A stretch of DNA of 64,000 nt from Squalus acanthias (taxonomy: Eukaryota), in assembly GCA_030390025.1 (NCBI GenBank), contig CM059432.1, forward strand, positions 8,680,001 to 8,744,000. The letters are read 5' to 3'. A program made the translations under genes and the position numbers. Below the pieces are notes generated by a model. The model made no database searches. It saw only the letters and a list, made by a program, of their open reading frames with translations, and was not told the DNA's origin. Positions 1-57,915 of this stretch are shown in pieces (positions within the stretch are counted from its first letter, which is position 1; each line of letters starts with the position of its first letter).

Positions 1-1665
1 CCCAGAAGTGACAATTATACCCAACTACAAACTAGTGTGGATACTGATGGAGATATAACGGTCACCGGCATATATGATGAGGCCACGGGACTGGGACGTT
101 GGTTATACTCCTGCTCGCCGCACGAGGGGCAGCGCGGAAAAACGATAGGTTTGGTCATCAGTACCGTCAACATTATAGCAGGGTGGACTAAATTACCCCC
201 ATTCATTTGGGAACCAGGACTTGAGGGACAATATTGCCAAGAATTGTGTAGCGATGTTCTTAAGCGGTTGGGATGTACTGATATAAGATGCTTTCATTTA
301 ACAACATGTGGATATCAAAAGCCGTCGCGGTGTCCCACCACGGTGCCACCTCCAACGGATGGCATGATCAGGGTCGGGGGCCCGAAGGCACTCTTACATG
401 ATGTAACTATGGTCACTTTAGAAGTAACCTATAACCTGAGCAGTATAGTGCCGGCGTTAGAGGCCAATTGTGGTGATCACCCAGCATCAATTACTTGGGC
501 AAAGCATAAATTGCAGCGATTACTCAGTGATTATAAGGACCGCATAGCCCCCGAAGTAGGGGCCTCCAAGGGGCGACAGGGACGGAGTATATTAGGGGAA
601 GTGGGGGGCTTGTTTGGAAGTGCCAACTCGGTCCTAAATTCATGGCAAGTCACGGGCCTGGATAGCTATGCCTCCAGGGTGGCGCAGGAAAGCGCCAAGG
701 GCCTGCGCTTCACAGCTCAGGGAACGGAGTATGCGCTTACGGCAGTAGAAGTGCTTGGAACCGGGTTACAGAGAGGTATAGAGGACCTAGGGAAAGTCGT
801 AATAAAGGCGACTGATTTGCAGTCCAAGGGCCGAGCATGTGTCATGCTGGCTCGGGACTTGATTGACAGTGTTGAATCAGACATTGAAGACATCAGGTTT
901 GGGACGGTGCCCCGTCATGCGCAGAAGGAAGTCAGCAGTCTCAATCTGATTAACTGGGAGGAAGATAGACAGGAGCTCTTGGTAACCCGCCCAGCAGGCG
1001 GGGGGACTGCGGATGCATTTAGATTTCTAATGATGATGCCACAGGGGCACAAGAATGGGACATATCAGGGGGGATGTAAAGTAGAGTCTCTGGGAGTGGT
1101 CAGAGGCGAATCGGCATACCGGGTGGGTACCCGTGGATACGTAGTACCTGGCAAGAATGGCATCCTCCTGATGACCACGGATGAGTGCTGTACTGAATCA
1201 GAGCACTACATCGTGTGTACCTGTAACACCCTGAAACCGATAGATGAGGGCTCAGCAGTGGTGGTGATGGTAGAGCCTCTGGAAGGAGTCTTTCGGGCGA
1301 TTCAGGCATCTCTGACTCAGTGGTGTTTTCTGACCGACGAGAAGAACTACCTCTACGGAGGATTGGTATGTGCAAATAATCATACGTTTTGCCTTCAAGT
1401 TTCAGACTCTCTCACCGTGGGAGATTTCCATCTCCCAGGCAGAACCCTCGCCGGCCTGGTCTTCAGCCCATGGTGGGATGACGAGTTGAGTGTGGATGAT
1501 ACACCAGGGAGGGCCGCTAGGGTGGCGGTGGAACAGGCCTTGAAAGCCACAATGGAATACATTACACGGAGTAAACAGGCCCTCACAAGAGGAAGAGTGG
1601 AGGTGGACTTGACCAAAAGAACGGCTAGAGGCTGGGAGCTAAAAGGCAGGGACCTTCAGCCATAG
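1..1665 (+). CDS. env: Envelope/fusion glycoprotein-like ORF of an LTR retroelement (class I fusion, F-like; lokiretrovirus-type by inference); 5'-truncated by the window
   Basis: Frame 1 is open from base 1 to TAG 1663-1665. It has a minimal furin-type site RQGR|S (574-588), a Gly-rich fusion-peptide-like SILGEVGGLFGSANSVLN, a long HR1-like helix, a Cys-rich region and an HR2-like helix near the end. N-glycosylation sequons NYT, NLS, NGT, NHT. A PPT and LTR follow downstream. Confidence 0.8.
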   Translation, partial: PRSDNYTQLQTSVDTDGDITVTGIYDEATGLGRWLYSCSPHEGQRGKTIGLVISTVNIIAGWTKLPPFIWEPGLEGQYCQELCSDVLKRLGCTDIRCFHLTTCGYQKPSRCPTTVPPPTDGMIRVGGPKALLHDVTMVTLEVTYNLSSIVPALEANCGDHPASITWAKHKLQRLLSDYKDRIAPEVGASKGRQGRSILGEVGGLFGSANSVLNSWQVTGLDSYASRVAQESAKGLRFTAQGTEYALTAVEVLGTGLQRGIEDLGKVVIKATDLQSKGRACVMLARDLIDSVESDIEDIRFGTVPRHAQKEVSSLNLINWEEDRQELLVTRPAGGGTADAFRFLMMMPQGHKNGTYQGGCKVESLGVVRGESAYRVGTRGYVVPGKNGILLMTTDECCTESEHYIVCTCNTLKPIDEGSAVVVMVEPLEGVFRAIQASLTQWCFLTDEKNYLYGGLVCANNHTFCLQVSDSLTVGDFHLPGRTLAGLVFSPWWDDELSVDDTPGRAARVAVEQALKATMEYITRSKQALTRGRVEVDLTKRTARGWELKGRDLQP

Positions 1666-1883
1666 GCTCAGGCCAAAGACAGCCTGACTGGTGGGACATA
1701 GGTAGAATGGCAGCCGCCATCGCCTCCATGCTCGTCCTTATTATCAGTATATGCATCTGTTGCTATCAAAAATGGATGATATCCCAAGTGGTGAAGATGT
1801 CAAATAGGGGAAACGCCCCGGTGTCAGAAGCCAAGGTGCCACTCTCAGAGACTGGGGAAAAGTGGGACGCGTATGCTCTATAA
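1629..1883 (+). CDS. C-terminal part of the env-like protein (membrane-proximal WW, transmembrane helix, cytoplasmic tail) in the -1 frame
   Basis: Frame open 1629-1883 reads ...QPDWWDIGRMAAAIASMLVLIISICICCYQKWMISQVVKMSNRG...WDAYAL*. The hydrophobic helix followed by a Cys cluster sits where a TM anchor is expected. Confidence 0.7.
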   Translation, partial: RLGAKRQGPSAIGSGQRQPDWWDIGRMAAAIASMLVLIISICICCYQKWMISQVVKMSNRGNAPVSEAKVPLSETGEKWDAYAL

Positions 1884-2070
1884 ATCTGGCCGACTGGGTC
1901 CCAAGCACAACCAATGTCACTAGGACATCGGTGAGGCTGGAAGAGGGCCATGTAATTTATGGATTTGACACTTGCGGGAGTCCAGTTGGATCCCTGGACA
2001 GTCCAGCAGGTAGAGAATTCAGGGAATTAGGTATGTCCTACCTGGATCAGACGAGATCTGACCAGGGGCC

Positions 2071-2081
2071 AACAGGAGGGA
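2071..2081 (+). promoter_or_regulatory. Polypurine tract
   Basis: AACAGGAGGGA lies just before the TG at 2083, downstream of env. Confidence 0.55.
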
Positions 2082-2082
2082 C

Positions 2083-4029
2083 TGATAGGGTAACCTGTAG
2101 GTTTGGATAACCTTTAAATGTGTATTATAGTTGCATTAGAAGCTATGCTATTAAAATGTAACTGTAACTGCAAGGTATGATGGGAAGCTTGACCAAAATC
2201 AGACCAAAGTGCAGTGTCGGCATTTAACAGTAGCAGTAGTTGTAATAAAGTTTCTCCACGAAACTTTGAATCAGGAACAATGAACAAAGATAATGGTAAC
2301 TGGATGAAGGGATAATTACTAGTCCTAGCTCTTTTCAGGCTACCCCAGATCAGGCGTATTCCCCAGACGTTCACCTTCAACTAAAGTTAGAGATAGCCGA
2401 ATCCTAGAGATGCTTAATTGGGTCTAAAGGTTCAGACTATCTCTCCCTAAAGGAAAGGAACGACTTGAAGATGTTACCATCCTCCAGATAGCACTTTTAA
2501 TAAGTTTAACTAGACTGTAATCTTCCGGATATTATGGGGGTCCGGAAAACCCCTCCAGAATTCTGCAACTCCTCACCAAAGAGTGTACAGAGATTGAGTT
2601 CGCGAGTTTGATACAGAAGTACTATGTGAGACAATTCTAAAAATATATAGATTTATTAAAGAACCGACATGCAGTTAACAGTTGGTGAGTCAATCGCAAC
2701 ATTAACAGTTCAAAATACAAATAGTTTACAATTCTTATTCTCAGAGATCCTTATTCTCAAATCTTAACTTCGTTACATTTTTACATTTCTTACTTAGTCT
2801 TAATCCAGAATATCCACCAAAATCAAATACCTTTGATTACCCGAGACTCAAAGAGTTGAAAACTTACAGAGCTTAGCCTCTGAAGTTGAGAATCGCTTGC
2901 CCCTTCCAGCAAATTCTGTTTTCCCATTTGAAAGTTCTATATCTATACTCTTTCTCAGTGGTATATCCTTTGAAGTTTTCTGCTGATGTAAGCCAATTAT
3001 CTCCAGTTATATTTCTGTTGACTTCTTTCTATTCTTACTTTCAATACAGCTGCTGCATGCAGAATTATGTCTGCTGTATAGGTGTTCAAAACTTATCATA
3101 AAAATAATGTAACAGCAGTGGTTCTATTTGATGCCATTTTTACGAAGGTCCTCTATTCAATTCTTAAATCACCTCAGCTGGTTATAAGCAGACGTCATGT
3201 CTCCTAACTGTTCCAAGTTCAATACAAACACGATTGCTTGGTGCATCTATTGATGTCATATTTACAAAGTCTTCTGTTTGTATCTTTTACAACATGTAAA
3301 TTAAAACCACTTCAACCGAGTACATGATTGTTTTCCTAACTACTTCAATTGGTTGTATTCAGACTCGTATCTCCATGTTTCATTTGATGTCATATTTATG
3401 AAGCAATATGGTTCTTTAATGTTCTGTGTTTCTGTTCGAAGTGTTAGTTTTATGACACCTTAAACTGGGTATAGCTATTGTGTTGGTTCCAAACTGCAGA
3501 CTTCTTGGAAGCTCCAACCTGCTAATTCAATGGGGCCATTGTCTCAGTGTCAACAACCAATTCCCATTTCAAAAGCTTGTATGGTGTTTACAGCTTTGTG
3601 TTAACAACTCATCTTATCTCAGAAGCCTATATTTATAGCTTTGTGTCGTTGAGGCTTTTAGATTTTTAAACCCAGTCTGTCATGTTTTAATAATCAAAAT
3701 TCTTTCATAGGATGGTGTATTTTTCTGAAATATGGCTATTCCTTTGCATGGAGACTGGATAAGATAAACAAAACTGCAGAAAGGCAGATGTAAGGACCTT
3801 GGGTCCGGGACAGTTGAGATAGCGGGAAGCATCTGCCAAAGCCGATGTAACCAGTAATTAACGGTTGAACAATTATCGGTAGCAGATTGATTCTGTATAA
3901 ATATACTGCGACAACCATTGTAAATTTGAGAGACTTCGGTGCGCTGAAGGCTCTCCCCTGCATGCTTGTAATAAAGTTTCTCTCATATCGCAGCCTACCC
4001 GTGACTCTGAGTGGTTTCCTTCCACAACA
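2083..4029 (+). mobile_element. 3' LTR of the env-bearing element, interrupted by an insertion at 2531-3709
   Basis: Starts TG after the PPT. TATAAAT at ~3896, AATAAA at 3970, ends ...TTCCACAACA at 4029, where an unrelated CR1 tail begins. Confidence 0.6.
2531..3709 (-). mobile_element. Probable antisense solo LTR nested in the env element LTR
   Basis: Flanked by GGAT (2527-2530 and 3710-3713). The minus strand begins TATGAAAGA and has AATAAA (TTTATT ~2653) near its 3' end. AT-rich and non-coding. Confidence 0.4.
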
Positions 4030-4030
4030 A

Positions 4031-4435
4031 AATCATAGAATGGCACAGCATGGAAGGAGGCCACTCGGCCCATCGAGTCCGCGGCGGCTCTTTCGAAGAA
4101 CAATCCAGTTAGTCCCACTCCCCCCCACCCCCCACCCCCGCTCTTTCCTCATATCCCTGCAATTTTTTCTCCTTCAATTAAATTATCCAATTCCCTTTTG
4201 AAGGCTACGATTGAATCTGTAGCCACCACCCTATCAGGCAGCGCATTCCAAATCCTAACCACGTGTCGCGTGAAAAAGGTTTTCCTCAGGTCACCTCTGG
4301 TTCTTTTGCCAATCACCTTAAATCTGTGCCCGTTGGATATCCACCCTTCAGCCATTGGAAACAGTTTCTCTTTATTTACTCTATCTAAACCATTCCTGAT
4401 TTTAAACACCTCTGTCAAATCTCCTCTTAGCCTTT
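4031..4435 (-). mobile_element. CR1 LINE 3' fragment
   Basis: Minus ORF RLRGDLTEVFKI...GHRFKV...FFTRHVVRIWNALP is the CR1 ORF2 C-terminus, followed by the 3' tail. Confidence 0.85.
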
Positions 4436-7866: not shown

Positions 7867-9203
7867 AGTTATACAGCACAGAAAGAAGCCCTTCGGCCCA
7901 TCGTGTCTGTGCCGGCCATCAAGCCCTATCTATTCTAATCCCATTTTCCAGCACTTGGTCCGTAGCCTTGTATGCTATGGTGTTTCAAGTGCTCATCTAA
8001 ATGCTTCTTGAATGTTGTGAGGGTTCCTGCCTCTACCACCCTTTCAGGCAGTGAGTTCCAGATTCCAACCACCCTCTGGGTGAAAAAGCTTTTCCTCAAA
8101 TCCCCTCTAAACCTCCTGCCCCTTACCTTGAAACTATGTCCCCGGGTTATTGACCCCTCTACTAAGGGGAAAAGTTGCTTTCTATCTACCCTATCTATGC
8201 CCCTCATAATTTTGTACACCTCAATCAGGTCCCCCCTCAGCCTTCTCTGCTCTAAGGAAAACAACCCTAGCCAGTCCAGTCTCTCTTCATAGCTGAAACG
8301 CTCCAGCCCAGGTAACATCCTGGTGAATCTCCTCTGCACCCTCTCCAATGCAATCACATCCTTCCTATAGTGTGGCGACCAGAACTGCACACAGTATTCC
8401 AGCTGTGGCCTAACTAGCGTTTTGCACAGCTCCATCATAACCTCCCTGCTCTTATATTCTTTGCCTCGGCTAATGAAGGCAAGTATCCCATATGCCTTTT
8501 TAACCACCTTATCTACCTGTCCTGCTGGCTTCAGGGATCTATGTACATGCACACCTCTGTCCTTCCTAGGATCCTACCATTCATTGTGCATTCCCTTGCC
8601 TTGTTAGTCCTCCCAAAATGCATCACCTCACACTTTTCAGGTTTAAATTCCATTTGCCACTGTACTGCCCATCTGACCAACCCGTCTATATCGTCCTGTA
8701 GCCTGAGGCTTCCCTCCTCGCTATTTACCACTCCACCAATTTTCGTGTCATCTGCAAACTTACTGATCATACCTCCTACATTCATATCTAAATCATTAAT
8801 GTACACTACAAACAGCAAAGGACCCAGCACCGATCCCTGTGGTACACCACAGGCTACCAGTCACAAAAACAACCTTCGACCATCACCCTCTGCCTCCTGC
8901 CACTAAGCCAATTTTGGATCCAATGTGCCAAATTGCCCTGGATACCATGGGCTCTTACCTTCTTGACCAGTCTCCCATGCGGGACTTTGTCAAAAGCCTT
9001 ACTGAAGTCCATGTAGACTACATTAACTGCACTACCCTTATCCACACACCTAGTCATCCCCTCGAAAAATTCAATCAAATTTGTTAGACATGATCTCCCC
9101 CTGACAAAGCCACGCTGACTATCCTTGATTAATCCTTGCCTCTCCAAGTGGAGACTAATTCTGTCCCTCAGAATTTTTTCCAATAATTTCCCTACCACTG
9201 ATG
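7867..9203 (-). mobile_element. CR1 LINE, 3' segment (RT domain to tail)
   Basis: TSVVGKLLE..., YMDFSKAFDKVPH, LGPLLFVVYINDL, KFADDTK, CR1 C-terminus; frameshifted. Confidence 0.9.
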
Positions 9204-11216
9204 TACGTGGCACTACGAGTGGCTCAGCTGCACAGGAGGGGAGGAAAAAGAGTGGGAGAGCAATAGTGATAGGGGATTCTATCGTAAGGGGAACAGATAA
9301 ACGTTTCTGTGGCTGCAGACGTGACTCCAGGATGGTATGTTGCCTCCCTGGTGCCAGGGTCAAGGATGTCACTGAACGGCTGCAGGGCATTCTGAAGGGG
9401 GAGGGCCGCCCTGAACAGTCAGAGGCCGTGGTCCACATTGGTACCAACGACATAGGTAGAAAAAGGGATGAGGTCCTGCAACAAGAATTAAGGGAGCTAG
9501 GTAGCAGATTAAAAAGCAGGACCTCAAAGGTTGTAATCTCTGGATTACTCCCGGTGTCACGTGCTAGGGAATATAGGAATAGGAGGATAGAGCAGATGAA
9601 TGCGTGGCTAAAGAGTTGGTGCAGGAGGGAGGGCTTTAGTTTCCTGGATCACTGGGTCTGCTTCTGCGGAAGGTGGGACCTGTACAAGTCGGACGGGTTG
9701 CACCTGAACCGGAACGGGACCAGCATCCTTGCGGGGAGGTTTGCTAGTACTTTTGTGGGTGGGGGGGGGGTTTAATCTAACTTGGCAGGGGGATGGGATA
9801 TGGAGTGGAGCGGTAGTAGTGGGTGATGCACAGTCAAATATAGAGGAAAAAACAAGTCAGCCTGGAAGGCAGAGCAAATATGTAACGGCACAAGGGAGCA
9901 TGGCAAGGCTGGATGGCATTTATTTTAACGCAAGGAGTCTTGCGAGTAAGGCAGATGAATTGAAGGTGTTGATGAACACATAGGAGTATGATATTGTTGC
10001 TATCACAGAGACATGGTTGAGGGAGGGGCAGGACTGGCAGCTCAATATTCCGGAGTATAGAATCTCAGGCGAGACAGGGTGGGGGTGTAAAAGAGGAGGG
10101 GGTGTCACAATATTAATCAAGGAGTCAATTACTGCTGTCAGGAGGGATGATATCTTAGCAGGTTCCTCTAATGAGGCCATATGGGTAGAACTTAAAAACA
10201 AAAAGGGGGCAAGCACTTTGCTGGGAGTGTACTATAGGCCCCCAAACAGTCAGGGGAGATAGAGGAACAGATATGTAGGCAAATCTCAGAGAAGTGTAGA
10301 AATAATAGGGTAATAATAGTAGGGTAATTCAACTTCCCCAATATTAACTGGGATAGTCAGAGTGTGAAAGGTTTAGAGGGTGCGGAATTCTTAAAGTGCA
10401 TCCAGGAGAGCTTTTTGAGCCAGCATGTAGAAAGTCCTACAAGAGAGGGGGCGGTACTGGACCTAATTCTAGGGAATGTAGTCGGGCAAGTGGTAGAAGT
10501 GTCAGTAGGAGAGCATTAGTGACCATAATTTGGTGAGATTTAAGGTAGTCATGGAAAAGGACAAAGATGGACCAGAAATAAAGGTTCGAAATTGGGGGAA
10601 GGCTAATTTTAATATGATAGGATCTGGCCAAAGTGGATTGGGATCAGCTACTTGTAGGAAAATCCACATCAGAGCAGTGGGAGTCTTTCAGAAAGGAAAT
10701 AGAGAGAGTACAACGCCAACAGGAGAGCGAAGAGGGGGCATGAAAAAACACTGGCGGGCAAAATAAAGGAAAATCCCAAGTTGTTTTATAAGTATATTAA
10801 GGGCAAGAGGATAACCAGGGAAAGAGTAGGGCCCATTAGGGACCAAAGTGGCAATCTGTGTATAGAACCGGAAGATGTGGGTGAGGGTAAATGAATATTT
10901 TGCATCTGTGTTCACTATGGAGAAGGACGATGTAGGCATAGAAATCAGGCAGGGGGTTTGTGATATACTTGAACAAATTAGTATTGAGAGGGAGGATGTA
11001 CTAACGGTTTTAGCGGGCTTAAAAGTGGATAAATCCCCAGGCCCAGATGAGATGTATCCCAGACTGCTGTGTGAGGCAAGTGAGGAAATTGCAGGGGCTC
11101 TGACACAAATTTTCAGAACCTCTCTGGCCACAGGGGAGGTGCCAGAGGACTGGAGGACAGCTAACGTAGTATCATTAATCAAGAAGGGTAGTAGGGATAA
11201 ACCAGGGAATTACAGG
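9204..11216 (+). mobile_element. CR1 LINE, inverted 5' segment (ORF1 SGNH/GDSL esterase plus ORF2 AP-endonuclease)
   Basis: VIGDSIVRG...HIGTND...DGLHLN (esterase); YFNARSL, ITETWL, GVYYRPP (APE endonuclease); ends at DKPGNYR. Confidence 0.9.
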
Positions 11217-15345: not shown

Positions 15346-16128
15346 CGCGATGGACACCTACGGACGCTGAAAAACGCCCTCGTAAGAACGGGATATGACG
15401 CTCGACTCATCGATCGACAGTTCCGACGGGCCACAGCGAAAAATCGCATAGACCTCCTCAGAAGGCAAACACGGGACACAACCAACAGGGTACCCTACGT
15501 CGTCCAGTACTTCCCCGGAGCGGAGAAACTACGACATGTTCTTCGCAGCCTTCAACATGTCATCGATGACGACAAACACCTCGCTAAGGCCATCCCCACG
15601 CCTCCACTACTTGCCTTCAAACAGCCGCCTAACCTCAGAAGTACCATCGTTCGCAGCAAATTACCCAGCTTTCAGGATAACAGCGACCACGACACCACAC
15701 AACCCTGCCATGGCAAACTCTGCAAGACATGCCAGATCATCAACACAGATACCACCATCACACGTGAGGACACTACCCACCAGGTACATGGTACATACTC
15801 ATGTGACTCGGCCAACGTTGTCTACCTCATACGTTGCAGGAAAGAATGCACCGCGGCATGGTACATCGGCAAGACCATGCAGACACTGAGACAACGTATG
15901 AACGAGCACCGCGCAACAATCGCCAGGCAGGATTGTTACCTCCCAGTCGGGGAACACTTCAGCAGTCAAGGACATTCAGCCTCGGATCTGCGGGTAAGCG
16001 TTCTCCAAGGCAACCTTAGAAACACACGACAACGCAAAATCATCGAGCAGAAACTGATAGCCAAGTTCCGCACTCATGAAGACGGTCTCAATCGGGATCT
16101 TGGGTTTATGTCACGATACATGACGTGA
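15346..16128 (+). CDS. Penelope polyprotein C-terminus (thumb/linker, Cys motif, GIY-YIG endonuclease); no start codon
   Basis: Frame uninterrupted for 260 codons: FKQPPNLRSTIVRS, PCHGKLCKTC, NVVYLIRCRKEC..WYIGKT..LRQRMNEH, EQKLI..F.T..DGLN. Confidence 0.85.
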   Translation, partial: RDGHLRTLKNALVRTGYDARLIDRQFRRATAKNRIDLLRRQTRDTTNRVPYVVQYFPGAEKLRHVLRSLQHVIDDDKHLAKAIPTPPLLAFKQPPNLRSTIVRSKLPSFQDNSDHDTTQPCHGKLCKTCQIINTDTTITREDTTHQVHGTYSCDSANVVYLIRCRKECTAAWYIGKTMQTLRQRMNEHRATIARQDCYLPVGEHFSSQGHSASDLRVSVLQGNLRNTRQRKIIEQKLIAKFRTHEDGLNRDLGFMSRYMT

Positions 16129-20647: not shown

Positions 20648-22747
20648 CATTACGGCACAGAAGGAGGCCATTCGGCCCATCATAGTCCATGCCGGCTCAC
20701 TGTAGAGCAATCCAGTCAGTCCCATTCCCGTAGCCCTGCAAGTTTATTTCCCTCAAGCGCCTATCCAATTTCCTTTTGAAATCATTGATCGTCTCTGCTT
20801 CCACCACCCTCGTCGGCAGCGAGTTCCAGGTCATTACCACTCGCTGCGTAAAAAAGTTCTTCCTCACCTCCCCCCCTGTATCTTTTGCCCAGAACACTAA
20901 ATCTGTGTCCCCTAGTCCTTGTACCATCAACTAATCGGAACAGCCTTTCTCTGTCTACCTTATCCAAACCCGTCATATCTTGACACCTCTATCAAATCTC
21001 CCATCAACCTCCTTTGCTCCAAGGAAAACAACCCCAGCTTCTCCAACCTAACCTTGTAGCTAAAATCCCTCATCCCTGGAACCATTCTGGTAAATCTCCT
21101 CTGCACCCTCTCAAGGACCTTCACATCCTTCTTAAAGTGTGGTGACCAGAACTGGATGCAATACTCTAGTTATGGCCTAACCAGCACTTTATAAAGGTTC
21201 AGCATAAGTTCCCTGCTTTTGTTCTCAATTATGAAGCCCAAGATCCCATGTGCTTTGTTAACCACTCTCTCAATATGTTCTGCCACCTTCAGGGACCTAT
21301 TCACATGAACCCCCAGGTCCCTCTGTCCCTGCACACTCTTTAGAACTGTGCCATTAAGTGTATATTGCCTCTTCCTATCCCTTCTGCCAAAATGCATCAT
21401 CTCACACTTCTCTGTATTAAGTTCCATCTGCCACTTGTCTGCCCATTCTGCTAGCCTTTCTATGTCCTGTTGCAGTCGATTGGCATCGTCCTCACTGTTT
21501 GCCACACCTCCAAGTTTGGTATCATCGGCAAATTTTGAAATTTTACTTTGTTTTCCAATATCCAAGTCATTTATATACATCAAAAAAAGCAGTGGCCCCA
21601 GCACTGACCCCTGGGGAATACCACTGTCTACCATCCCCCAGTCTGAAAAACAACCATTGACCACAACTCGCTGTTTTCCTATTCCATTAGCCTCAATTTT
21701 GTTAACCAGCCTTCTATGTGGTACTTTGTCAAAAGCTTTCTTAAAATCCATATAGACAACATCCATTGCATTCCCTTCCTCAACCTTCTCTGCTACTTCT
21801 TCAAAAAATTCGATTAGATTAGTCAAACACGATCTGCCTTTTACAAATCCCTGCTGGCTCTCCTTAATTAACTTAAACCTCTCCAAGTGCCTGTTAATTT
21901 TTTCCCTCATTATTGTTTCTAAAACCTTACCCACCACTGATGTTAAACTGACCGGCCTGTAGTTACCAGGATTGTCCTTACCCCTTCTTGAACAATGGTG
22001 TCACATTTGCCACTTTCCAATCCTCTGGCCCCTCCCCCGTATCTAGGGAAGATTGGAAGATTATGGCAAGCCCTTCCGCTATATCCTCCAACAATTCCCT
22101 TAGCAACCTGGGGTGCAAGCCATCCGGACCAGGCGACTTATCCAGCATAATCCAGCCTTTCCAGTACATCCTGCCTATCAATTTTCACCCCATCCATTAC
22201 CTCTACCATCTCCGCTTCTACCGATATTTTGTCAGCATCCTCTTCCTTAGTAAACCTTGCCCTGCGCCTCTAAGCATATATCACCTTCTTTGTCCCTAAT
22301 CGGCCCCACCCCGCCTCTTACTACCTGCTTACTATTTACATGCCGGTAGAAGATTTTTGGGTTTCCTTTTATGTTAATTGCCATTCTATTCTCATATTCT
22401 CTCTTTGCCAGTCTTATTTTCCTCTTCACTTCCCCTCTCAACTTATTGTATTTGGCCTGGTTCTCACATGAAGAATTCACCTGACATGCATCATACACCC
22501 GCTTTTTTTGTTTCATTTTATTCCCTATCTCCCTCGGCATCCAAGGATCCCTTGCTTTGGTTCCCTTACCCTTCCCTCTTGTTGGAATGTACCTAGCCTG
22601 TACCTGAAACATCTCCTCCTTAAAGATCACCCATTGTTCCGTTACAGTTTATCCTGTCAATCTTGGGTTGCATTTTACCCTGGCTAGATCCTTTCGCATT
22701 CCATTGAAGTTCGCCCTATTCCAGTTTAGAAGTTCTACTTTAGATTG
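20648..22747 (-). mobile_element. CR1 LINE (degraded RT)
   Basis: KSPGPDG, YMDFKKAFDKVPH, GIPQGSVLGP, KFADDTK. Confidence 0.9.
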
Positions 22748-33790: not shown

Positions 33791-34836
33791 TGCCACAAAT
33801 TTATTTGCACGTTAATTGCGTCTGATTATATTCTGTTTAACGGGATGGTAAAAGTAGCTAAAATATTAACTATTAATCTTAAGTGCTCACCAGAGTTTGT
33901 TGTTACATGATATTCTATTTGTACAAACACAGTTTTACGTCCTGCATTGTCCTGGGCCAGTCAAAGGAATGGCAGCTCTCTGCCTAGGCGTGTGATCTCG
34001 CCAGTACCTGACTGCCTTTTTCCCCAAATGGGCCTAATTTAGTCTGCAGGGCGGGTTGAGAGCAGGAATCCCACTCCTGACTGGTTCTCCGCTGCTGGGC
34101 GGGAGGAACATCTGGTGCAGCTGCAGCACTTTAAAGGCTGCTGCAGCTTAAAGAGTCAGAAGCCCAGCATTTCAATTGGGAACGAGATAGAGAAACAAAA
34201 AAGAGAGGGAGGGAGAGAAAGAGATTTGTGTTGGCAAGCGTCCGGTCCGGGAGAAAATATTAGAGGTTTCACGGAATTGAAACCGAAAGTGCTGGAAATG
34301 CTCAGCAGGTCAGGCAGCTGCTGTGGGGGGAGAAACAGAGTTGACGGGCTGGATTTTGCCAGGCCCGAGGAGGCGAGTTTGGAGGCGTGTGAGGTGGGAA
34401 AGTTGCAAAAAATGGCGGCGGGCTCCAATCCCGCCTCCGAGAAATTTTCCCAGAATCGGGGTTTCAGAGGCGGGATGGGCCTTTAAGGCCCTTAACAACC
34501 AGTTAAGTGCCTCTATAATGCCATTTTGAGAGGCCTTTCTGAATTTAACACCTTTCTCCTGTGCTGCACATCTCCTCTGGAACACGCCAGTTAATCCTGG
34601 TGGCCTCACAAGTGGATGGCTTACTAACAGCTGCAGCTCCACCATTAAAAAAGAGTTTTCACCGAGGATCATTTGCAAGTGGCTGAACTTTGTTTTCTCA
34701 GGTCTGGGAGAGTTTTTAGCAGGTCTACTCATTGTGGAAGTTTTGAAGCTGAGATACATCTCCAGTGTGACCTCCTGGGAAACCCCTCTCCCCACCTTGA
34801 CTGAGCGCTTCCTCAACTGAGGTATATACCAGTAGC

Positions 34837-36086
34837 ATGGCAACCATTTATTTCCTTTTCTCCTGGACATCAGATTCAGACGAAGATCAGCCGCGGCAGC
34901 AGCAGAACCCGGAACAACAGCAGCACCAACAGCTGGAGCAACAACAGGAGCGCCAAGCTGCTGCTCACCCACCTGAAGCTGCACAGGCCAGAAAGCGCCA
35001 GCGCATGGAAGCACGTCGCCGCAGGCGATACCCCCAAAACAGGGTTTACAGACAGAGGATGAGCTACCTCAACATCACTGAGCAGCAGTGCCAAAGGAGG
35101 CTGAGACTTTCGCGAGAGGTAGTGGGTGACATCTGCACAATGCTGCAACAAGACCTGGAGCCCAGAGGAGCGGGTGAACACCCCTTACCATTGGCCGTCA
35201 AAGTCACCACCACACTCAGCTTTTTTGCTTCAGGCTCATTCCAGGGATCAGCAGCAAACATCAGCGGCATCTCCCAGTTGGCCGCACACACTTGCATCAT
35301 GCAGGTAACCGATGCCCTCTTTGCCAATGGGCACAATTACATCAACTTCTCCAAGGATCAGGCAAGTGTAACCACGCGTGCGGTTGGATTTGCTAATCTG
35401 GCAGACTTTCCAAGGGTGCAGGGCATCGTAGACTGCACACATGTGGCCCTTAAGGCACCCCATCACAATCCAGGTATTTTTGTCAACCGCAAGGGCTTCC
35501 ACTCCCTCAAAGTGCAGCTGGTGTGTGACCACAAGAAGGACATTTTGCATGTTTGCACCAAGTACTCTGGCAGTTGCCATGACTCCTTCATCCTGCACCA
35601 ATCTAGTGTGCCTCCGCTCTTCAATCCGCCAGACCAACTTTTCGGATGGCTCCTTGGAGACAAGGGCTATCCCCTGAAGACGTGGTTAATGACACCGTTG
35701 AGGAGCCCATCCAACGAAGCCGAGGAGCGCTACAACTCCAGCCACATTTCCACCAGATCCATCATCGAGCAAACCATCGGCTTGCTGAAGATGCAATTCA
35801 GATGCCTTGATAGATCAGGTGGAGCCCTGCATTACTCAGCAGCCAGGGTCTCCAGAATCGTCGTGGTCTGCTGCGCACTTCACAACATGGCTTGCAGCTG
35901 CCTGAGGTACAAGTGGCTCATCGCATAGCCTCCTCAGATGAGGATGAGGATGATGATGAGGAGGAGGAGGAGGAGGAGAGCGACAACGAGCAGCTTGCGG
36001 AGGCGCATCAACCAACGGCAGCAGCACACAAGCACATTGCTGTCCGGGATGCAAGGGACGCACTCAACTTGGCCAGATTTGCTTAG
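34837..36086 (+). pseudogene. Harbinger DDE transposase (HARBI1-like family), one late frameshift
   Basis: 363-aa ORF with [50 protein letters not shown]. The acidic tail and RDAL...F* lie in another frame (35892-36086). Confidence 0.9.
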
Positions 36087-37098: not shown

Positions 37099-39400
37099 TG
37101 AGATCTGGCTAAGCAGCGCAGATATCCTCGATTCCCTGAGAGTAAATGAATGATGCCGGCTACCCAGGTAGCTTGAACTGAGATGCCGAATGAGGTGCCT
37201 TGCATCACCCACTATCTGCACAATCAGTGAACAAAATCCAATCCTGTTGATGAAATTGATGGCGCTTTCAGACAATGGGGTAATCCAGCCATTCTAAAGA
37301 AGTTGATTGCTCTCCCACTCTCTCCCTCTCTCTCTCGCAGGGTCCATGGGGAAATTAATCAAATCAGTGGCATACCTGAACAGGGCATCAGTCACCTGTG
37401 TAATACACTGATGCACTGATGTGACTACTTTTTTTATTTGTTCATGGGATGTGGGCATTGCTGGCAAGGCCAGCATTTATTGCCCATCCCTAGCTGCCCT
37501 TGAGAAGGTGGTGGTGACCCAGCGACGATGAAGGAACGGCCGATATATTTCCAAGACAGCGTGGTGTGTGACTTGGAGGGGAACTTGGAGGTGGTGGTGT
37601 TCCCACGCGCCTGCTGCCCCAGTCCTTCTAGGTAGAAGAGGTCGCGGGTTTGGGAGGTGCTGCCGAAAAAGCCTTGGCGAGTTGCTGCAGTGCATCTTGT
37701 AGATGGTACACACTGCAGCCACGGTACGCCGGTGGTGGAGGGAATGAATGTTTAAGGTGGTGGATGGGGTGCCAATCAAGCGGGCTGCTTTGTCCTGGAT
37801 GGTGTCGAGCCTCTTGAGTGTTGTTGGAGCTGCACTCATCCAGGCAAGTGGAGAGTATTCCATTACACTCCTGACTTGTGCCTTCTAGATGGTGGAAAGG
37901 CTTTGGGGAGTCAGGAGGTGAGACACTCGCCGCAGAATACCCAGAATACCTGCTCTTGTTGCCACAGTATTTATGTGGCTGGTTCAGTTAACTTTCTGGG
38001 CAATGGTGACCCCCAGGATATTGATGGTGGGGGATTCAGCGATGGTAATGCTGTTGAATTCAAGGGGTGGTGGTTAGACTTTTGCTTGTTGAGATGGTCA
38101 TTGCCTGGCACTTGTGTGGTGCAAATGTTACCTGCCACTTATCAGCCCAAGCCTGAATGTTGTCCAGGTCTTGCTGTATGTGGGCATGGACTGCTTCATT
38201 ATCTGAGGAGTTGCAAATGGAACTGAACATTGTGCAATCATCAGCGAACATCCCCATTTCTGACCTTATGATGGAGGGAAGGTCATTGATGACGCAGCTG
38301 AAGATGGTTGGGCCTAGGACACTGCCCTGAGGAACTCCTGCAGCGATGTCCTGGAGCTGTGATGATTGACCTCCAACAACCACAACCATCTTCTTTTGTG
38401 CTAGGTATGACTCCCGCCAGTGGAGTGTTTTCCCCCCTATTCCCATTGACTTCAGTTTTACTAGGGCTCCTTGATGCCACACTCGGTCAAATGCTGCCTT
38501 GATGTCAAGAGCAGTCACTCTCACCTCACCTCTGGGACTCAGCTCTTTTGTCCATGTTTGGACCAAGGCTGTAATGAGGTCGGGAGCCGAGTGGTCCTGG
38601 TGGAACCCAAACTGAGCATCAGTGAGCAGGTTATTGGTGAGTAAGTGCCGCTTGATAGCACTGTCAATGACCCCTTACATCACTTTGCTGATGATTGAAT
38701 GTAGACTGATGGGGTGGTAATTGGCTGGATTGGATTTGTCCTGCTTTTTGTGGACAGGACATACCTGGGCAGTTTTCCACATTGTTGGATAGATGCCAGT
38801 GTTGTAGCTGTACTGGAACAGCTTAGCTAGAGGCACGGCTAGTTCTGGAGCACAAGTCTTCAGCACGATAGCCAGGATGTTGTTGGGGCCCACAGCTTTT
38901 GCTGTATCCAGTGCGCTCAGCCGTTTCTTGATATCACATGGAGTAAATCGAATTGGCTGAAGACTGGCTTCTGTGATGGTGGGGACCTCAGGAGGAGGCC
39001 GAGATGGATCATCCACTCGGCACTTCTGGCCGAAGATGGTTGCAAACGCTTCAGCCTTGTGAAGCATCATTAGATGCTGCTTGGACACAGTTGTCACCTT
39101 CCCAACCACTGACAAAGATATGCCTCTGGTGAAAGGAAGTTGCAGGTCAGATGATGCATCTCACTTACTGTATGCGGTGAGATAAATGTAATCTTCTCAG
39201 ATATCCTCATAGGACCTCCTTGGTCTCCAGATCCTGTGGCATGGGATGTCTGTGAGTCAAGTGTCGCCTGGCTGCATGAAGCCACACTCTCTCCTGGCTT
39301 CCATTGTCTCTTCCTTCATGTCCTCATCATCTTCCTCCTCAAAGCACAAGAACAAAGGAATCCCAAGAAAGAAATCCATTATTTCCCTGATAGGAATCTC
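37099..39400 (-). pseudogene. Older, highly degraded Harbinger transposase interrupted by a LINE
   Basis: Minus strand: RIWRPRRSYEDI...LSVVGKVT (39250-39090), VHQCITQVTDALFRYATDLINFP (37425-37345), FINRIGFCSLIVQIVGD...YLGSRHHSFTLRES (37260-37110). Confidence 0.75.
37429..39058 (-). mobile_element. CR1-group LINE (non-canonical subfamily), 5'-truncated
   Basis: LDIKAAFDRVWH, GVPQGSVLGP, MFADDCT, EYSPLAW, SLHHRRTVAA; tail GGGCAATAAATGCTGGCCTTGCCAGC..CCCACATCCCATGAAC plus poly-A. Confidence 0.85.
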
Positions 39401-56849: not shown

Positions 56850-57915
56850 AATTAAATATTGGGGAGACCTAAGTCATCGTCTTTAGTCCCCGCCACAAAC
56901 TCCGTTCCCCAGCCACCGACTCCATCCCTCTCCCCGGCCGCTGTCTGAGGCTGAACCAGACAGTTCGCAACCTCAGCGTCCGATTCGACCCTCAGCTGAG
57001 CTTCGGATCCCATATCCACTCCATCAGCAACTTCTTCCACCTCCGTAACATTCTTCGTACACCGCCCCTGCTTCAGCTCATCTGCTACTGAAACCCTCAT
57101 CCATGCCTTTGTTACCTCCAGACTCGAATTTTCCAACGCTCTCCTGGCCGACTTCCTGTACTCCACCCCCTGTAAATTTCAACTCGTCCAAAACTCTAAC
57201 TCGCACCAAGTTTCGTTCACTCTTGTGCTCGCTGACCTACATTGGCACCTGGTCCGGCAACGCCTCAAATTCTCATCCTTGTTCAAATCTCTCCATGGCC
57301 TTGCCCCCCTCCCTATCTCTGTAATATCCTCCATGGCCTCGCCCCCCTCCCTATCTCTGTAATATCCTCCATGGCCTCGCCCCCCTCCCTATCTCTGTAA
57401 TATCCTCCATGGCCTCACCCCACTCCCTATCTCTGTAATATCCTCCATGGCCTCGCCCCCCTCCCTATCTCTGTAATATCCTCCATGGCCTCGCCCCCCT
57501 CCCTATCTCTGTAATATCCTCCATGGCCTCGCCCCCCTCCCTATCTCTGTAATATCCTCCATGGCCTCGACCCCCTCCCTATCTCTGTAATATCCTCCAT
57601 GGCCTCGCCCCCCTCCCTATCTCTGTAATATCCTCCAGGCCTACAATCCGTTCCTCCAATTCTGGACTCTTGTGAATCCCTGATTTCCTTCATCCACCAT
57701 TGGTGGCCGTGCCTTCAGCTGCCAAGGCCCTAAGTTCGGGAATTCCCTTCCTAAACCTCGCTGCCTCTCTATCTTTTTCTTCCTTTAAGATGCTCCTTAA
57801 AACCTACATCTTTGACCAAGCTTTTTTCTCCTTATATGGCTCGGTGTCAAATTTTATCTGACAATGCCACTGTGAAGTGCCTTGAGGCTTTTTACTATGT
57901 TAAAGGTGCTATATC
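56850..57915 (+). mobile_element. L2 LINE 3' fragment
   Basis: Homologous to 44895-45665. Confidence 0.8.
57291..57637. repeat. 38-bp minisatellite, 9 copies
   Basis: Unit CCATGGCCTCGCCCCCCTCCCTATCTCTGTAATATCCT at 57293, 57331 ... 57597. Confidence 0.95.

What the first reader, a model, noticed from the sequence alone, without database searches (positions are those of the whole stretch)
1..1883. Endogenous LTR element with an F-type (paramyxo/pneumovirus-like) envelope and >550 uninterrupted codons
Seen: the frame is open from base 1 to 1665, with GRQGR|SILGEVGGLFG, a helical HR1-like segment, roughly 200 aa of Cys-rich sequence, an HR2-like helix, then a TM segment, PPT and LTR. Known: classical retroviral TM subunits have a short ectodomain with a CX6CC or similar loop, which is absent here. 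A long Cys-rich insert between HR1 and HR2 is the architecture of Mononegavirales F and baculovirus F/errantivirus Env, and lokiretroviruses were described with F-like Env. Inference: this is a lokiretrovirus-like (or env-bearing Gypsy) element in a cartilaginous fish, either young or with an env kept open by selection. Most other ORFs in the window are broken.
Basis: partly seen in the sequence, partly recalled or inferred. Interest (0 to 1): 0.78.

Follow-up and report, generated by a model that had tools for sequence, protein, structure and literature searches.

The report
Dead shark provirus with F-type envelope
This is the broken tail end of an endogenous retrovirus, likely in a shark, whose envelope protein is predicted to fold like the fusion protein of measles-type and foamy viruses and is related to the envelope of snakehead retrovirus rather than to that of lokiretroviruses.

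Summary
But the env is frameshifted before its membrane anchor. The 3' LTR (2083-4029) is split by a 1444-bp solo LTR with a 4-bp target duplication. Differences from sister copies fall evenly over codon positions (10/7/10 of 27 shown), so there is no sign of selection.

An F-type fold is supported by a low-confidence model (foamy Env and paramyxovirus F rank first) and by language-model hits.

The lokiretrovirus or Gypsy reading is not supported. Relatives occur in sharks (44-49%), teleosts (about 30%) and turtles. A complete teleost-type carrier has a CCHC Gag and a Retroviridae-type Pol (PQG, not the Loki/Gypsy PFG). The Env is homologous to the Env of a genome identified as snakehead retrovirus (E 4e-9). 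The carrier Pol joins that virus in the best tree, without support (57/20). This copy's own gag and pol lie outside the window and are untested.

The scan noted similar F-type, non-Loki proviruses on other DNA of this genome. The copy is ordinary; the family adds a further retroviral lineage with F-type Env.

The parts
1..585 (+). 3' part of the Env surface subunit (5' end outside the window): a Cys-rich N-terminal extension, then from about nt 361 the predicted F2-like strand and HRC-like helices, ending in a minimal R-x-x-R cleavage motif
586..1626 (+). Env fusion-subunit ectodomain: glycine-rich putative fusion peptide, long central helix (aa 224-299), Cys-containing beta region, membrane-proximal helix; no CX6CC or ISD
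1627..1689 (+). interval holding the frameshift; frame +1 runs on to a stop at 1663-1665
1689..1883 (+). membrane anchor and short cytoplasmic tail in frame +3, stop at 1881-1883
2064..2082 (+). polypurine tract region, similar to the PPT-LTR junction of carrier provirus L001
2083..2304 (+). 3' LTR, first part (starts TG)
   Evidence: (a contig begins at 2083 and depth rises there)
2305..3748 (.). nested 1444-bp TG..CA insertion, likely a solo LTR of a very high-copy family, with a 4-bp target-site duplication
   Evidence: (joint skipping 1448 bases in 3 of 4 runs; depth up to 5e5)
3749..4029 (+). 3' LTR, second part (TATA box 3896, AATAAA 3970, ends CA); LTR about 500 bp without the insert; the right end is inferred from the CA and the repeat starting at 4031

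Best explanation
The stretch is the env, polypurine tract and 3' LTR of a frameshifted, LTR-interrupted copy of a likely many-copy endogenous retrovirus, likely of a shark, whose Env is predicted to be an F-type fusion protein and whose backbone is likely a deep, snakehead-retrovirus-related branch of ordinary retroviruses. Shown: the frameshift, the nested insertion, homology to shark, teleost and turtle Envs and to the Env of the SnRV-size genome L029, and the LTR-gag-pol-env-LTR layout of a teleost-type carrier. Inferred mechanism for the ancestral virus: a furin-like protease would cut Env; the glycine-rich peptide and the long central helix would spring out into a trimeric coiled coil, and the membrane-proximal helix would fold back to merge the membranes, as in paramyxovirus F and foamy Env. 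The surface subunit would stay built into the core through its F2-like strand, and the extra Cys-rich domain of about 230 residues at the N-terminus would likely bind the receptor. This copy would at most give an unanchored protein and most likely does nothing. Its long open frame is likely chance survival among many decaying copies.
For: Env family: 18 hits, E to 1e-75; 39 hits among 1.84 billion representatives; closest named hits Scyliorhinus torazame 44-49% and Carcharodon 46%. Fold: VIA top four of 48,161 chains are foamy Env 8rm0 (Z 8.1, rmsd 4.2, 146 aligned), NDV F (7.2, 12.3, 175), measles F (6.1, 3.4, 119) and hPIV3 F (6.0, 3.5, 113). Foldseek ranks 1-11 are all paramyxo/pneumovirus F. 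The match spans the F2 strand through the core sheet, not only the coil. An eel relative hits PF00523 clusters at 0.92 and 0.91. Carrier: L001 has LTR, coiled-coil plus CCHC gag, an in-frame stop, PR-RT-tether-RH-IN and env. SnRV link: pairwise E 4e-9, 25% over 225 aa. Among the long ORFs of 83 loci, L029 Env was the best non-family hit of all three profiles (E 5e-6 to 6e-5); no gamma or foamy Env passed. Decay: frameshift; nested solo LTR; differing sites 10/7/10 by codon position, p 0.69 against one third and p 0.013 against 60% third-position; the window departs at 7 of 47 columns conserved in relatives. Chance of no stop is 0.17 at 3% and 0.05 at 5% divergence.
Against: Both models are low confidence (pLDDT 36 and 45). 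No Foldseek PDB match reached E 0.001, and Z 7-8 is common for unmatched models. Sequence profiles found no significant PDB or Pfam hit. The window's own gag and pol were not seen; the backbone is taken from carriers whose Env is only about 30% identical. The Pol tree does not resolve the carriers: SnRV grouping 57/20, class I grouping not rejected (p-AU 0.42), foamy grouping p-AU 0.06; RT identities to SnRV, gamma and foamy are all 37-40%. The codon-position test uses 27 sites from the 40 rows shown of 316, from runs that may be other species. Envelope swapping is real in this clade.
Confidence: 0.62

Rival explanations
1. The same dead F-type env, but on another retroviral backbone (class I epsilon/gamma-like, or foamy-like) after an envelope swap.
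For: The SnRV-clade chimaera element CmiERV scaffold 2 carries a gamma-type Env (ISD and CX6CC, read by eye from its DNA), so Env and Pol are uncoupled in these viruses. The WDSV-size genome L035 Env scores weakly on one profile (E 0.002). Class I placement of the carriers is not rejected. An unchecked scan note reports an F-like env on a class I backbone in this genome (e1-9943543).
Against: The PPT-LTR junction resembles that of carrier L001. The foamy-type GGGTG junction described in PMC5210030 is absent. There is no room for foamy-type accessory genes between env and the LTR (200 bases).
Confidence: 0.24
2. A lokiretrovirus or env-bearing Gypsy element; it would extend Loki to cartilaginous fish.
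For: Loki Env is F-like (PMC7947760). By eye, the carrier RT resembles Loki RT in its N-terminal half. The Atlas gave Gypsy/Baculo_F clusters at 0.78-0.80 for the window protein, a lead only.
Against: Family motifs are absent from the Loki Env supplement as held (file cut). The Loki Envs displayed (8 of 23 places) mostly have only about 110-125 residues before the cleavage site, against 283-367 here. All 24 Loki RT rows have PFG; all 9 retrovirus rows shown and the carriers have PQG. PMC13524379 reports no vertebrate elements homologous to invertebrate errantiviruses.
Confidence: 0.06
3. An env kept by selection: either a co-opted secreted ectodomain (for example a receptor blocker), or an intact gene whose frameshift is an assembly error.
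For: 542 Env-frame codons without a stop; the chance of this is 0.05 or less if divergence is 5% or more. The break removes just the anchor. No run holds this exact locus, so the break is unverified (best share 0.36).
Against: Differing sites are spread evenly over codon positions. Seven conserved columns are lost and the cleavage motif is only minimal. The family appears to have many copies, so one long survivor is expected.
Confidence: 0.08

Closest known systems
Snakehead retrovirus (SnRV) and its ERV clade (PMC12193657; L029 identified by its 10,688-nt length and an RT motif matching the SnRV row)
   Same: Homologous Env segment from the F2-like strand through the cleavage site to the central helix. 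No CX6CC or ISD in either Env. Gag with coiled coil and CCHC, followed in frame by pol, as in carrier L001.
   Different: The SnRV Env frame is 1134 codons with a 136-residue tail and downstream accessory ORFs. This family has about 700-750 aa, a short tail and no room for a 3' ORF. Only 25% identity over 225 aa; Pol grouping unsupported.
Foamy virus Env (PDB 8rm0; PMC11468914)
   Same: Best structural match of the better model (Z 8.1); F-like nested core in a retroviral Env.
   Different: No PF03408 hit. The foamy RBD sits between HRC and the furin site, whereas here that linker is about 13 residues and the extra domain is N-terminal. Carrier Gag has a CCHC motif.
Lokiretrovirus Env (PMC7947760)
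   Same: F-like layout: basic cleavage site, fusion peptide, coiled coil, Cys-containing beta region, anchor.
   Different: No shared family motifs; Loki has no large N-terminal domain; Loki RT has PFG; none was reported in the chondrichthyan genomes screened.
Paramyxovirus/pneumovirus F (PF00523; 1ztm, 3maw, 9coh)
   Same: Predicted core fold: F2 strand, HRC, central helix, core sheet.
   Different: About 10% identity; encoded in a provirus; carries an extra N-terminal domain instead of relying on a separate attachment protein (F biology recalled).
CmiERV lineage I of the elephant shark (PMC4422223)
   Same: SnRV-clade ERV of a cartilaginous fish; Pol motifs close to the teleost carriers (for example 15 of 18 residues in one integrase motif, read by eye).
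   Different: It carries a gamma-type Env with ISD and CX6CC.

Membership tests
Endogenous retrovirus (LTR provirus) | env followed by PPT and a TG..CA LTR with TATA and polyA signals | tested here: met
Endogenous retrovirus (LTR provirus) | 5' LTR, PBS, gag and pol in this copy | not testable with these tools
   upstream of base 1; no genome is held
F-type (paramyxo/pneumo/foamy-like) class I fusogen | core beta sheet shared by surface and fusion subunits around a central helix | tested here: met
   low-confidence model; F proteins and foamy Env rank first in two aligners; Atlas hit for an eel relative
F-type (paramyxo/pneumo/foamy-like) class I fusogen | domains I and II and trimer formation | tested here: inconclusive
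   that part of the model is mostly below pLDDT 50; no trimer was modelled
Lokiretrovirus | Env homologous to Loki Env with a short pre-cleavage subunit | tested here: not met
   (motif search and reading by eye; supplement cut when stored)
Lokiretrovirus | RT in the Loki clade (PFG motif) | tested here: inconclusive
   not met for the teleost carriers; the window's own RT was not seen; no Loki rows were in the trees
SnRV clade | Pol groups with SnRV | tested here: inconclusive
   carriers only: best tree 57/20; fork open
SnRV clade | Env homologous to SnRV Env | tested here: met
   E 4e-9 pairwise; profiles E 5e-6 to 6e-5
Foamy viruses / fish foamy-like ERVs | GGGTG at the PPT-LTR border; accessory ORFs after env; Gag without CCHC | tested here: not met
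   the border reads otherwise; 200 bases between env stop and LTR; carrier Gag has CCHC; features from PMC5210030 passages
Gamma-type Env | ISD, CX6CC and CXXC motifs | tested here: not met
Errantivirus (env-bearing Ty3/Gypsy) | Gypsy-type Pol and PF12259/PF07253 Env | tested here: inconclusive
   no Pfam hit; Atlas 0.78-0.80 is a lead only; carriers have retroviral Pol with tether plus RNase H; own Pol unseen
Co-opted env gene | intact frame, purifying selection, orthology, expression | tested here: not met
   frameshift and even codon-position spread; orthology and expression could not be tested

The most novel reading that the evidence does not exclude
F-type Env is not a foamy or Loki oddity. 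It is also the envelope of a deep non-foamy retrovirus lineage spread over sharks, bony fish and turtles, and of exogenous SnRV and perhaps the epsilonretroviruses. That would make it the ancestral retroviral envelope, later replaced by gamma- and beta-type Env; in this family the attachment domain sits at the N-terminus of the F core.
Probability: 0.35. Interest if true: 0.7.

Novelty: new variant of a known kind. Interest (0 to 1): 0.42.

Why it matters
Wang and Han (PMC7947760) left open whether the F-like Env was ancestral to retroviruses or gained by Loki alone, and foamy Env was later shown to be F-like (PMC11468914). A further F-type Env family on Retroviridae-type Pol, homologous to SnRV Env, favours the ancestral scenario. 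It also makes the question testable, because naturally full-length Envs exist in teleost annotations. It shows too that F-like Env should not be used to call an element a lokiretrovirus. This copy itself is a decayed fragment with no likely function.

Tried and rejected
No genome is held, so upstream DNA, LTR-LTR age and copy number were out of reach.

Pfam and PDB sequence searches of the Env and its profiles gave nothing significant (measles F appeared only at E 0.54-1.3). No longer fused form of a teleost Env was found (weak evidence). Viral contigs held no close Env relative. In BFVD the single hit under E 0.001 is unnamed.

No RNA holder was listed. X13 is RNA only by guess and also holds the high-copy insert, so it says nothing on expression. 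X21 laid 5 reads. No tRNA genes were found, and no second copy of the env or LTR lies in the window. The Env tree has long branches; the window sits with the shark rows at 84/95 in an open fork. The N-terminal domain was not folded alone (both jobs used), so its fold is untested. Scan look-ups by sequence and by nearness were blank.

Literature: nine searches showed no paper describing an F-type Env in SnRV-related ERVs; subscription papers are not covered. The J Virol 2023 paper on cartilaginous-fish foamy viruses (PMC9972966) is not held, and the supplement of PMC5210030 could not be searched; either may bear on novelty. A zebrafish ERV supplement had no relevant motif hit among the places shown (cells cut).

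Full report
Observation. Frame +1 is stop-free for 554 codons, far beyond shuffles (maximum 302 in 2000). The cleavage motif, the glycine-rich peptide and the lack of CX6CC or ISD are as described. The membrane anchor is in frame +3, and tblastn with relatives switches frame between about nt 1627 and 1689, so the gene is frameshifted. Sister copies in 3 of the 4 runs laid show a length difference against this copy at that interval. The shift is therefore likely particular to this copy, or an assembly error, which I could not test.

Anatomy. The purine tract ends at 2082 and resembles the PPT-LTR junction of a complete carrier provirus. The LTR runs 2083-2304 and 3749-4029, with TATA at 3896 and AATAAA at 3970. 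Between the two parts lies a 1444-bp TG..CA insertion with a 4-bp duplication. Contigs in 3 of 4 runs skip exactly this stretch, and its depth reaches hundreds of thousands. Summed depth over env in run X1 is 410-1344, against 8-12 for single long contigs. The tool warns this is no copy number, but it suggests many copies. Twenty listed runs, under nine organism labels, hold 15-36% of the sampled words and none holds half. A share of 0.36 corresponds to about 3% divergence if uniform.

Selection. Of 316 differing sites the tool showed 40, of which 27 lie in the Env frame: 10 first, 7 second and 10 third positions. That fits neutral drift (p 0.69) and not a 60% third-position excess (p 0.013). 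The window agrees with 40 of 47 columns conserved among relatives. A frame this long escapes stops with probability 0.17 at 3% and 0.05 at 5% divergence, which is unremarkable in a many-copy family. The sample is small and filtered, and the runs may be other species.

Family. One search gave 18 homologs: 17 at 28-33% (named ones are teleost) and one catshark protein at 49%. One search gave 39 hits. I looked up 10 of them, which include Scyliorhinus, Carcharodon, Caretta, Chrysemys, Carassius, Danio, Denticeps and Coilia. Full-length relatives have 283-367 residues before the cleavage site and, in 8 of 9, a 357-363-residue ectodomain after it. The shark host is inferred from these nearest hits and the Env tree, not shown directly.

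Fold. A model of residues 121-542 from 53 sequences reached pLDDT 44.5, with 70-79 over the strand and helices before the cleavage site. Foldseek ranks 1-11 were paramyxo- and pneumovirus F, best E 3.2e-3. The wide VIA search ranked foamy Env first (Z 8.1, rmsd 4.2, 146 residues), then NDV, measles and hPIV3 F. The aligned range runs from the F2-like strand to its partner strand after the central helix, the nested arrangement described for F and foamy Env (PMC11468914; abstract and passages read). An eel relative scored 0.92 and 0.91 to PF00523 clusters in the Atlas. I put the F-type fold at about 0.85.

Backbone. A teleost gene model joining RNase H to this Env led to full Pol proteins. A metagenome contig, L001, holds LTR, coiled-coil/CCHC gag, an in-frame stop, pol with protease, RT, tether, RNase H and integrase, env, PPT and LTR. 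Six of 7 carrier Pols matched WERMPQG (one did not match the pattern) and all have YVDD. In the RT alignment of PMC7947760 (main text parts 1-3 of 4 and parts and passages of the supplement read), all 24 Loki rows have PFG and the 9 retrovirus rows shown have PQG. Loki Envs lack this family's motifs and its long N-terminal part. The three chondrichthyan species I looked up are unmarked in that paper's table.

With natural genomes from IMG/VR, the carriers form their own deep branch. The best whole-Pol tree joins them to the SnRV-size genome at 57/20; class I is not rejected (p-AU 0.42) and foamy nearly is (0.06). These trees lack Loki, ERV-L, fish foamy-like and alpha/beta/lenti rows. The group labels rest on genome length, motifs and Pfam; the WDSV name is recalled. 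The Env gives the clearer link: the window aligns to L029 Env at E 4e-9 across the F2-like strand, cleavage site and helix, and three profiles rank it first outside the family, the WDSV-size Env weakly (E 0.002) on one, and no gamma or foamy Env. Because an SnRV-clade chimaera element has a gamma-type Env (PMC4422223; part 1 of 2 of the text and part 1 of 3 of supplement 1 read), envelope swaps occur, and this copy's backbone remains an inference.

Other papers seen. Passages: PMC5210030, PMC10699275, PMC8672886 (supplement search 56), PMC12440569, bioRxiv 2024.03.25.586437 (29), PMC12583693, PMC11521997, bioRxiv 2024.03.17.585361 (86), PMC12193657, PMC13709493. Abstract and passages: PMC13524379. 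PMC9972966 was seen only as a reference entry. Nine searches showed no description of F-type Env in SnRV-related ERVs; paywalled papers and unseen supplements may hold one.

Verdict. A real but dead proviral tail. Earlier scan notes on other DNA of this genome reached similar readings. They are not independent support, but two of them prompted the SnRV comparison, which I then ran. The interest lies in the family, a further retroviral lineage with F-type Env: 0.42.

Noticed in passing
window 2305-3748: 1444-bp AT-rich TG..CA element with a 4-bp target duplication and extreme depth in related runs; likely a solo LTR of an abundant family, possibly in reverse orientation (polyA signal on the minus strand at 2652).
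   Followed up: partly
proteins P0003, P0009, P0010 and their clusters: Teleost Envs of this family come in large clusters (eel 16, loach 15, cyprinid 444 members), several full length and annotated only as uncharacterized, suggesting recent spread in fish.
   Followed up: partly
L001 107-9098: Broken but complete carrier provirus whose two LTRs are identical over the 80 bases that can be compared; no PBS was recognised by eye. Related Pols P0072, P0074 and P0075 begin with their own Met right after the gag stop position.
   Followed up: partly
L029 6131-9532 and L035 5962-9648: The Envs of the SnRV-size and WDSV-size genomes have no relevant Pfam hit; the SnRV-size Env lacks CX6CC and ISD; both score on this family's profile, so both may be F-type.
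   Followed up: partly
CmiERV scaffold 2 (PMC4422223 supplement): SnRV-clade Pol with a gamma-type Env: envelope exchange within the clade.
   Followed up: partly
window 34801-35928, 8854-9648, 21170-22000, 38060-38674, 9119-9775, 15346-16128: Transposon remains: Harbinger-type DDE transposase (375 codons open), three LINE RT pieces, a GDSL esterase ORF and a weak GIY-YIG hit.
   Followed up: no
window 57215-57713: Tandem array of a 38-bp unit, about 9 copies at 97% match.
   Followed up: no
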